Source: a virus
Taxonomy: Duplodnaviria; Heunggongvirae; Uroviricota; Caudoviricetes
Virus record (IMG/VR): IMGVR_UViG_2534681941_000022
Strand: one strand, 5' to 3'
Length of the DNA: 9,320 nucleotides
Notes under the pieces: model-generated
Seen by the model: only the letters and a program-made list of their open reading frames with translations
What the model was told of the DNA's origin: nothing
Databases searched by the model: none
Shown here: positions 8,188 through 9,320 of the stretch, piece by piece
How positions within the stretch are numbered: position 1 is the first letter of the stretch
Layout of the letters: every line of letters begins with the position of its first letter
Position numbers and translations under genes: made by a program

Positions 8188-9039
8188 ATCTCACACCTCC
8201 CGGAATCCCCGCTGAAGCCATCATTAATGCGGCATCATCCACCATGACATCCGCCACATCCGCAGACGATAAAATATCGCGCCCTCCGTCCCCACCGAAC
8301 CGGACGCCTCCGGCAAGTCCTGCCGCTTTCTGCATCAGCATTTTGTCCTCATCCGGCCTCTCCACCTGCTCTTCCTCATGCCGGGGGACAAGCAGACTGA
8401 AATCAGAGGGATGCATATCCGGATCGCAAAAAAACAGGCTGAGTACAGCGTACGTCAGCCCGGAAAAATGCATATCCAGCTGGGTATCCTGAAAATAATG
8501 CGTGCGGTAAAAACGGTGCCAGTCGGCATATTCGGTGGATGTCATCCCGGCAAGCATGGCGCGCCAGTCGGGTCTCCCCATCTCACGCGCCAGTCTGAGG
8601 GCAAAGTTCAGCTCGCCGTCGAAGACTTTCCCGCAGAAAAATCATCATCAGTCAGCGTGTTATTTTTCGCCACTTCAGTAATATCAGTATCCGGACGAAC
8701 AGCCCCGCTCATCCCGGACAGGCACAACACCACGTCTTCCGCCCGGGCAATGGCATCGGCAGGCCAGGTGGTGAGCACTTCCTGCTCTATCTTCATCACG
8801 GCCTCATTCATTGACGGTGACTGCGTTTTCTGTGGATGGTTATGCCACAGGGACATCGCCACCAGAAACGCGCCGGTTCTGACGAGATCTTCCACGCTTA
8901 CCTGCAGGTTGCCGCTGGATTCTGCCTGTTCTGCACGCCGTTTCAGGAGGGCAAGATGCTCGATACGCTGCAGCGCAGACAATTCGGAAAGCGTGACAGA
9001 CACACCGTTATATTCAAATTGTTCTGTTTTCAGAAACAT
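8168..9039 (-). CDS. T: Tail assembly chaperone G-T fusion, produced by programmed -1 ribosomal frameshift at 8632-8626 (about 290 aa)
   Basis: The -1 frame is open from the slippery heptamer and reads GKVFDGELNFALRLAREMGRPDWRAMLAGMTSTEYADW..., collinear with lambda gpT. The frame ends at stop 8170-8168. The track lists only the ATG-initiated part (8168..8581). Confidence 0.75.
8608..9039 (-). CDS. G: Tail assembly chaperone G homolog (143 aa)
   Basis: ATG at 9039 with GGAGG 8 nt upstream gives MFLKTEQFEYNGVSVTLSELSALQRIEHLAL...DDDFSAGKSSTAS, collinear with lambda gpG (140 aa). The track ORF 8608..9111 carries a 24-codon upstream extension that overlaps the V stop and is not used. Confidence 0.9.
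   Translation of the reverse strand: MFLKTEQFEYNGVSVTLSELSALQRIEHLALLKRRAEQAESSGNLQVSVEDLVRTGAFLVAMSLWHNHPQKTQSPSMNEAVMKIEQEVLTTWPADAIARAEDVVLCLSGMSGAVRPDTDITEVAKNNTLTDDDFSAGKSSTAS
8626..8632 (-). promoter_or_regulatory. Slippery heptanucleotide G GGA AAG for the G to G-T -1 frameshift
   Basis: Plus strand CTTTCCC at 8626-8632 is GGGAAAG on the coding strand. In the G frame the codons are GCG GGA AAG, 5 codons before the G stop. Same heptamer and position as the lambda G/T site. Confidence 0.75.
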
Positions 9040-9052
9040 GTATGACCTCCGT

Positions 9053-9320
9053 TTACCCTGCAGCGCCCGCTTCAGTAACGGTGACTTCAGCCACTGCGGC
9101 GAACTGACCATTTCCGCTCACCACAGGGATCTGCACCTTACCTGTCGCCACGCCGTTTACCGTAATTGTCATATCTTTCACACTAATGGTGGCTTTCGAC
9201 GGATCGGCGGAAACCGCTCTGAACGTCTTGTCTGTTGCACTTTCCGGCTCAAAAGAACCGTCAGGGTGGTTGTTTTCCCTTTGCCACCGTACCGGATGTC
9301 GGCGTCACCTTAATCGCACT
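9053..9320 (-). pseudogene. V: Major tail protein V homolog, 3' portion only (5' end beyond the right edge); frame interrupted twice in the visible part
   Basis: Frame ending at TAA 9055-9053 reads ...[66 protein letters not shown], matching the lambda gpV C-terminal Ig-like region, but has an in-frame TGA at 9307-9305. The upstream V-like sequence sits in two other frames: [12 protein letters not shown] (about 9311-9276) and KGKTTTLTV (9282-9256). Confidence 0.6.

What the first reader, a model, noticed from the sequence alone, without database searches (positions are those of the whole stretch)
9251..9320. Major tail gene V needs two separate frame changes within about 30 nt
The frame ending at 9053 is V-like only back to about 9253 and is closed by TGA at 9307-9305. 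Upstream V-like sequence is in a second frame (KGKTTTLTV, 9282-9256) and then a third ([12 protein letters not shown], 9311-9276), matching lambda [24 protein letters not shown]. This implies two 1-nt deletions: one in the A/G runs at 9273-9283, one at 9254-9255 next to the T4 run 9251-9254. With the L frameshift, that is three small indels in two essential genes while H and J stay open.
Basis: partly seen in the sequence, partly recalled or inferred. Interest (0 to 1): 0.55.

Follow-up and report, generated by a model that had tools for sequence, protein, structure and literature searches.

The report
Homopolymer sequencing errors in tail gene V
The two frame changes in the phage tail-tube gene are really in the deposited sequence, but they are almost certainly base-calling errors in runs of identical bases at the end of an old draft-assembly contig, not a decaying gene.

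Summary
On the minus strand of 9320-9250, V-like sequence runs through three frames. The window lacks one A of an A4 run (AAA at 9282-9280) and one T of a T3 run (TT at 9257-9256). Restoring both gives a gapless Big_2 Ig-like domain, 73% identical to lambda gpV 164-244.

The biological reading does not hold. The window is a whole 9,320-bp contig, AIFL01000045.1, from the 2012 E. coli DECA draft collection. Both deletions lie within 65 nt of its end. The intact allele is exact in 1,162 complete E. coli records and in 77 of 77 metagenome contigs. The double-deletion allele occurs in none of them. It recurs only on a second contig of the same assembly.

Sister DECA drafts each show a different set of one-base homopolymer undercalls in the same 45-nt stretch. 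Their indel counts equal their substitution counts.

The adjacent 2.5 kb has no substitutions against complete-genome copies. The L "frameshift" is also a homopolymer change (GG to GGG).

Verdict: sequencing or assembly artefact, about 0.9 confidence, low interest. The only genuine frameshift in the window is the programmed G-T site G GGA AAG at 8632-8626.

The parts
9053..9320 (-). 3' end of a lambda-type major tail gene V, covering only the C-terminal Big_2 Ig-like domain (about residues 158-246). It is cut by the contig end and broken into three frames.
   Evidence: After repair, Pfam Big_2 scores 66.9 bits, E 1.6e-18.
9280..9282 (-). AAA run that is AAAA in intact copies: the first 1-nt deletion, 39-41 nt from the contig end.
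   Evidence: The A3-only allele is exact in 3 complete-genome records, against 1,162 with the intact allele.
9256..9257 (-). TT that is TTT in intact copies: the second 1-nt deletion, 64-65 nt from the contig end.
   Evidence: The T2-only allele is in 0 complete-genome records. It was seen only in DECA drafts AIFL (two contigs), AIFM and AIGF.
9261..9263 (-). TGA that would end V translation after ...VAKGKQPP if the first deletion were real. It lies upstream of the second deletion.
9305..9307 (-).
8608..9039 (-). Tail assembly chaperone gene G (143 aa), intact.
   Evidence: The exact protein is listed in 7,860 blocks of the gene index.
8626..8632 (-). G GGA AAG slippery heptamer, the conserved programmed -1 frameshift site that produces G-T. 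This is the one genuine frameshift in the window.
   Evidence: in register with G, and a -1 shift reads through T.
4975..4977 (-). GGG run that is GG in all relatives. The 1-nt insertion splits L into 132-aa and 93-aa ORFs. It belongs to the same class of homopolymer length change.
   Evidence: The 132-aa fragment is found on no other contig. The top complete-genome L copies span 699 nt for this 700-nt query.

Best explanation
The two frame changes are base-calling and consensus errors, not mutations. They are homopolymer undercalls (A4 read as A3, T3 read as T2) in a homopolymer-dense stretch within the last 65 nt of a short repeat contig. The contig belongs to a 2012 draft assembly of a multi-prophage E. 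coli strain from the DECA collection.

The real gene is most likely an ordinary intact V C-terminal Ig-like domain, identical to the copy found in many O157-type prophages. The extra G in L is the same kind of error.

Shown here:
- The indels are homopolymer length changes.
- They are unique to this assembly.
- Sister assemblies carry different undercalls at neighbouring runs.
- Indels equal substitutions in number in these drafts.

Inferred, not shown:
- The sequencing platform was 454 pyrosequencing.
- The repeat consensus was placed twice by the assembler.
For: 1. The window is the entire contig AIFL01000045.1 of GCA_000249395.2. The AIFL accession lies in the block of the E. coli DECA collection (PMC3558956). 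A sister project from the same centre and year used 454 Titanium with the Celera assembler (PMC3491183).

2. Allele counts are lopsided. The intact 68-mer is exact in 1,162 complete-genome records. The double deletion is in 0, T2-only in 0 and A3-only in 3. All 77 metagenome contigs are intact.

3. In the same 45 nt, different drafts carry different homopolymer undercalls:
- AIFL: A3 + T2
- AIFM: T2 only
- AIFO: A3 only
- AIGF: G3 to G2, T3 to T2 and T4 to T3
- AIGG and AIGX: the second A4 to A3
- AKMN: A3 only

4. The orphan 42-aa V tail ORF that results from a broken V is on only 14 contigs. Of the ten shown, seven are DECA contigs from six assemblies. The adjacent G protein is in 7,860 index blocks, with intact V upstream in all 10 places shown.

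5. In near-identical segments, the DECA drafts have as many indels as substitutions, and most are 1-nt deletions in runs of 3-4. AIFM has 5 indels and 4 mismatches in 10 kb. AIFL contig 57 has 4 and 2 in 4.8 kb. Six later drafts have 0 indels in 16.8 kb.

6. The first 2.5 kb of the contig has 0 substitutions against L002 and L004, yet 2 indels against L004 (against L002, which shares the A deletion, 1).

7. A second contig of the same assembly (AIFL01000057.1) starts at the same V base. It is identical for about 1.9 kb, including both deletions. That fits one repeat consensus placed twice.

8. In the stretch, 41% of bases sit in runs of 3 or more. That is the 98th percentile for this contig.

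9. The only 3 complete genomes with the A3 allele have 4-10 neighbouring prophage genes flagged frameshifted.
Against: - No reads were available, so the error is inferred rather than seen.
- I could not read the sequencing platform of this particular assembly from its own paper (searches failed).
- Runs of 3-4 bases are short for classical 454 undercalls, although low coverage at contig ends makes such errors more likely.
- The A3 allele recurs in three independent complete genomes and in AKMN and AIFO drafts. A real recurrent slip at that run is therefore not strictly excluded.
- Defective prophages in O157-type strains do carry genuine frameshifts.
Confidence: 0.9

Rival explanations
1. Genuine pseudogenisation. 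One or two prophage copies in this strain really lost one A and one T, truncating V after the tube domain (...VAKGKQPP*) and leaving the Ig-like domain untranslated.
For: - The V allele type of the window sits, in relatives, in a prophage that already lacks the 3' part of gene E through gene U. Selection on V there may therefore be relaxed.
- Prophage genes in O157-type genomes are often annotated as frameshifted.
- In lambda, loss of the gpV C-terminal domain still allows tails to form (PMC8718954).
Against: - 0 of 1,162 complete-genome records and 0 of 77 metagenome contigs carry the double-deletion allele.
- The flanking 2.5 kb has zero substitutions. With indels about 10 times rarer than substitutions, two indels alongside no substitutions has roughly 1% probability (my estimate).
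- Sister drafts show the three other combinations of the two sites, which would need recurrent mutation at both.
- The whole assembly family shows an indel-to-substitution ratio near 1.
Confidence: 0.07
2. A real slippage hot spot. The AAAAGGGAAAA stretch mutates recurrently in nature and switches the surface Ig-like domain of the tail tube off, as a kind of phase variation.
For: The A4 to A3 change appears in unrelated backgrounds: an O121:H19 strain, two O157-type complete genomes, and several drafts.
Against: - Runs of 3-4 nt are far below the lengths known to give appreciable slippage.
- Every assembly that carries the change also has many other frameshift flags or fragmented genes nearby.
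- None of the 77 metagenome contigs shows it.
Confidence: 0.02
3. Programmed ribosomal frameshifting joins the Ig-like domain to V, as reported for Ig-like domains in some phage structural proteins.
For: This rests only on an analogy recalled from the literature (Fraser et al. 2006, which appears in the reference list of PMC8718954). The window does have a true programmed site 600 nt downstream, in G-T.
Against: - Homologues, including lambda, encode this region in a single frame.
- Two shifts of the same sign would be needed within 25 nt.
- The two-frame arrangement is not conserved.
Confidence: 0.01

Closest known systems
Lambda gpV major tail (tube) protein, C-terminal Big_2 Ig-like domain (gpVC, residues 157-246)
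   Same: The repaired window sequence aligns without gaps to gpV 164-244 at 73% identity. It matches Pfam Big_2 over nearly the full profile. The downstream gene order G, T, H, M, L, K, I, J is that of lambda.
   Different: The deposited sequence has two 1-nt homopolymer deletions. The tube domain (Phage_TTP_12) lies beyond the contig end. The closest natural copies are O157-type prophage alleles, not lambda itself.
Homopolymer-length errors of pyrosequencing or long-read assemblies in multi-copy prophage regions
   Same: - The changes are single-base indels confined to homopolymer runs.
- They sit near a contig end.
- They are unique to one assembly.
- Sister assemblies vary at neighbouring runs.
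- The indel-to-substitution ratio is about 1.
   Different: The platform for this assembly is inferred from the project and centre, not read from its own paper. The runs are short, at 2-4 nt.
Defective lambdoid prophages of E. coli O157:H7 (the Sakai Sp and EDL933 CP-933 pool)
   Same: The first 2.5 kb is identical to a copy present in hundreds of O157-type genomes. In that copy, V follows an 88-aa capsid remnant.
   Different: In those complete genomes this V region is intact. The window's frameshifts are not part of the known defects of that prophage.

Membership tests
Lambda-type major tail protein V (Phage_TTP_12 + Big_2) | C-terminal Big_2 Ig-like domain | tested here: met
   The repaired 89-aa sequence matches PF02368 at 66.9 bits (cut-off 22.8), profile positions 5-79 of 79. 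It is 73% identical to lambda gpV 164-244.
Lambda-type major tail protein V (Phage_TTP_12 + Big_2) | N-terminal tail-tube domain | not testable with these tools
   The contig ends at about V codon 158. Relatives with the same 3' end have Phage_TTP_12.
Lambda-type major tail protein V (Phage_TTP_12 + Big_2) | Position immediately upstream of G, G-T, H | tested here: met
Lambda-type major tail protein V (Phage_TTP_12 + Big_2) | Single uninterrupted reading frame | tested here: not met
   The deposited sequence uses three frames. The frame is restored by adding one A and one T.
Genuine pseudogene in a decaying prophage | The lesion is shared by related genomes or seen in independent assemblies | tested here: not met
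   0 of 1,162 complete-genome records and 0 of 77 metagenome contigs carry it. It is found only in two contigs of one assembly.
Genuine pseudogene in a decaying prophage | Accompanying neutral substitutions, with indels a minority of changes | tested here: not met
   There are 0 substitutions but 2 indels in the first 2.5 kb. The indel-to-substitution ratio is about 1 in the sister drafts.
Genuine pseudogene in a decaying prophage | The lesion is reproducible in reads or resequencing of the strain | not testable with these tools
   No access to reads.
Homopolymer sequencing or assembly error | The indel changes the length of a homopolymer run | tested here: met
   A4 to A3, T3 to T2, and in L GG to GGG.
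Homopolymer sequencing or assembly error | Different errors at neighbouring runs in assemblies from the same pipeline | tested here: met
   One search shows five different runs affected across AIFL, AIFM, AIFO, AIGF, AIGG and AIGX.
Homopolymer sequencing or assembly error | The platform is known for homopolymer errors | tested here: inconclusive
   AIFL lies in the DECA accession block. A sister project at the same centre used 454 Titanium with Celera. The DECA paper itself is not held.
Programmed ribosomal frameshift | A two-frame arrangement conserved in homologues | tested here: not met
   Homologues are single-frame.

The most novel reading that the evidence does not exclude
The A4 run in GGCAAAAGGGAAAAC is a genuine recurrent slippage site. 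Independent lineages would then switch off the surface-exposed Ig-like domain of the tail tube protein while keeping the tube domain, and this strain carries such an allele plus a later secondary deletion.
Probability: 0.03. Interest if true: 0.3.

Novelty: not a real feature. Interest (0 to 1): 0.05.

Why it matters
It matters mainly as a caution. Short repeat contigs from early draft assemblies of strains with many prophages carry homopolymer indels that look like pseudogenes. Counting such frameshifts as prophage decay would give false signals.

If the lesions were real, they would only remove a decoration domain. In lambda, loss of that domain still permits tail formation (PMC8718954). They would also sit in a prophage lineage that is already defective. 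The biological consequence would therefore be small either way.

Tried and rejected
- **Reading the DECA genome announcement.** I tried by DOI and by a remembered PMC id, and neither is held. Searches for AIFL or GCA_000249395 in papers found nothing. A search for neighbouring accessions matched only unrelated longer strings. The strain name is therefore unverified. From accession order, it may be one of the DEC3/DEC4 O157:H7 isolates.
- **Finding an identical copy of the whole contig.** Among 5,426 complete E. coli genomes, the best match is only 97.1% identical.
- **Looking up the exact H protein and the 132-aa L fragment.** Both exist only on this contig, so no independent assembly of the same prophage could be compared.
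- **Testing whether the contig is a chimeric consensus of paralogous prophages.** The variable-site matrix for M-L-K shows tracts of 200-400 nt resembling different copies. That fits both real mosaicism and chimeric assembly, so it is undecided.
- **Programmed frameshifting and compensating indels.** Both were considered and rejected. The two deletions have the same sign (net -2), and homologues are single-frame.

Full report
**What is in the sequence**

The minus strand of the window encodes a lambda-type tail module:
- the last 89 or so codons of V
- G, T and H (859 aa)
- M
- L, split into 132 and 93 aa
- K and I
- the first 1,001 codons of J

- The frame starting at 9320 reads [19 protein letters not shown] and stops at TGA 9263-9261.
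- A second frame reads [10 protein letters not shown].
- A third frame, closed upstream by TGA 9307-9305, reads [18 protein letters not shown]...TEAGAAG and stops at TAA 9055-9053.

The frame at 9320 is the native V frame, because the offset to the annotated V start in a complete genome is 157 codons.

**The two deletions**

Alignment to intact prophage copies from complete genomes shows exactly two differences in this region:
- One A is missing from an A4 run. The window has AAA at 9282-9280.
- One T is missing from a T3 run. The window has TT at 9257-9256.

Adding the two bases restores one frame.

The window therefore holds only the C-terminal decoration domain of V. The tube-forming domain lies beyond the window edge.

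**Where the window comes from**

An exact look-up of the H protein shows that the window is a whole 9,320-bp contig, AIFL01000045.1 of assembly GCA_000249395.2. It cannot be extended.

The AIFL prefix lies in the accession block of the E. coli DECA collection drafts published in 2012 (PMC3558956). A sister project at the same centre in the same year used 3-kb paired-end 454 Titanium reads assembled with Celera 6.0 (PMC3491183). I recall the same pipeline for the DECA genomes, but I could not read that paper.

Both deletions lie 39-41 and 64-65 nt from the contig end. The 41-nt stretch around them has 41% of its bases in runs of three or more, which is the 98th percentile for this contig.

**Population evidence**

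| Allele | Exact matches in 5,426 complete E. coli genomes |
|---|---|
| Intact 68-mer | 1,162 records |
| A3 only | 3 records |
| T2 only | 0 |
| Double deletion (the window) | 0 |

A degenerate pattern that accepts all four combinations found 77 metagenome contigs, and all 77 carry the intact allele.

The three complete genomes with the A3 allele have between 4 and 10 neighbouring prophage genes flagged as frameshifted or carrying an internal stop. They therefore look error-prone in this region too.

**Evidence from sister assemblies**

A broken V leaves a 42-aa orphan ORF. That exact ORF occurs on only 14 contigs. Of the ten shown, seven are DECA contigs from six assemblies, one is an AKMN draft, and two are LXIX/LXJI contigs in which the ORF follows an N-joined duplicated piece. 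By contrast, the adjacent G protein is listed in 7,860 blocks of the index, with an intact V called upstream in all ten places shown.

Within the same 45 nt, the drafts differ only by homopolymer undercalls, and each shows a different set:

| Draft | Undercalls |
|---|---|
| AIFL (both contigs) | A3 + T2 |
| AIFM | T2 |
| AIFO | A3 |
| AIGF | G3 to G2, T3 to T2, T4 to T3 |
| AIGG, AIGX | second A4 to A3 |
| AKMN | A3 |

If real, this pattern would need recurrent independent mutation at five neighbouring short runs, restricted to a few sequencing projects.

In segments that are otherwise nearly identical to complete-genome copies, the DECA drafts carry as many indels as substitutions, mostly 1-nt deletions in runs of 3-4:
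- AIFM has 5 indels and 4 mismatches in 10 kb.
- The other AIFL contig has 4 indels and 2 mismatches in 4.8 kb.
- Six later drafts have no indels in 16.8 kb.

**Evidence within the same assembly**

A second contig, AIFL01000057.1, begins at exactly the same V base. It is identical to the window for about 1.9 kb, including both deletions. Further along, its H and J genes are broken into several pieces. This fits one repeat consensus placed at two positions by the assembler.

The first 2.5 kb of the window has no substitutions against two complete-genome copies, yet 2 indels against L004 (L002 shares the A deletion, so 1 there). If indels arise about ten times less often than substitutions, two indels with no substitutions has a probability near 1%. 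That figure is my own rough estimate.

**The L frameshift**

The window has GGG at 4977-4975 where all compared copies have GG. The resulting 132-aa fragment is found on no other contig. The top complete-genome L copies span 699 nt for this 700-nt query.

**Conclusion**

The frame changes are real features of the deposited record. They are very probably homopolymer base-calling or consensus errors at the end of a repeat contig, with confidence about 0.9. Genuine pseudogenisation keeps about 0.07. A real recurrent slippage site keeps about 0.02. Programmed frameshifting is excluded for practical purposes, because homologues are single-frame.

Even if the lesions were real, they would remove only the Ig-like domain. 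In lambda, loss of that domain lowers activity about 100-fold but still allows tails to form (PMC8718954).

The V allele type seen here also sits, in related genomes, behind an 88-aa capsid remnant. That prophage has already lost the genes from the 3' part of E through U.

**Other points**

The one genuine frameshift signal in the window is the conserved G GGA AAG site for G-T at 8632-8626.

The contig as a whole matches no complete genome better than 97.1%, and its H protein is unique. Different segments are identical to different prophage copies. The contig may therefore be a chimeric consensus of paralogous prophages. I could not decide that point.

Noticed in passing
window 4975-4977 (minus strand, gene L): An extra G (GG to GGG) splits L into 132-aa and 93-aa ORFs. 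The 132-aa piece occurs on no other contig in the gene index, and the top complete-genome L copies are one base shorter. This is the same class of homopolymer change as the V deletions.
   Followed up: yes
window 8626-8632 (minus strand, 3' end of G): The conserved slippery heptamer G GGA AAG sits in the lambda register. A -1 shift there reads through T to give the G-T fusion. This is the only genuine frameshift signal in the window.
   Followed up: yes
whole window; L013 (AIFL01000057.1) 1-1900: The window is an entire 9,320-bp contig. A second contig of the same assembly starts at the same V base and is identical for about 1.9 kb, including both deletions. Further along it has H and J broken into several pieces.
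   Followed up: yes
window 1-9320, especially 4500-6900 (H 3' half, M, L): - No complete E. coli genome matches the contig better than 97.1%.
- The 859-aa H protein is unique in the gene index.
- The V-G-T-H 5' segment is identical to one O157 prophage copy, and the K-I-J 5' segment to a different copy in strain 13E0780.
- The L region is a patchwork of 200-400-nt tracts.

This could be real mosaicism or a chimeric consensus of paralogous prophages.
   Followed up: partly
L001 8782-9770; L004 2282-3270; L010 5582-6444; L015-L024: In related genomes, the V allele type of this window follows an 88-aa major-capsid remnant. A deletion from gene E into the first codons of V removed FI, FII, Z and U. 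That prophage lineage is therefore already unable to make heads or tails, yet its V reading frame stays open.
   Followed up: partly
L002, L104, L105 (PNUSAE019785, O121:H19 16-9255, O157:H7 AC-3): These are the only three complete RefSeq genomes with the A4 to A3 allele. Each has 4-10 neighbouring prophage genes annotated as frameshifted or carrying an internal stop, which suggests residual homopolymer errors in these finished assemblies too.
   Followed up: partly
L008 ~9100-9120; L011 ~9990-10000: The LXJI and LXIX draft contigs carry duplicated 3' pieces of V joined through a single N. These look like scaffolding artefacts, and they create the same orphan 42-aa ORF without any frameshift.
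   Followed up: no
window ~8247-8255 (minus strand, gene T): There is a 9-nt in-frame length difference from strain 13E0780 at a short direct repeat (GCGGATGT GGCGGATGT). The difference was not seen in the alignments to the compared O157-type copies.
   Followed up: no
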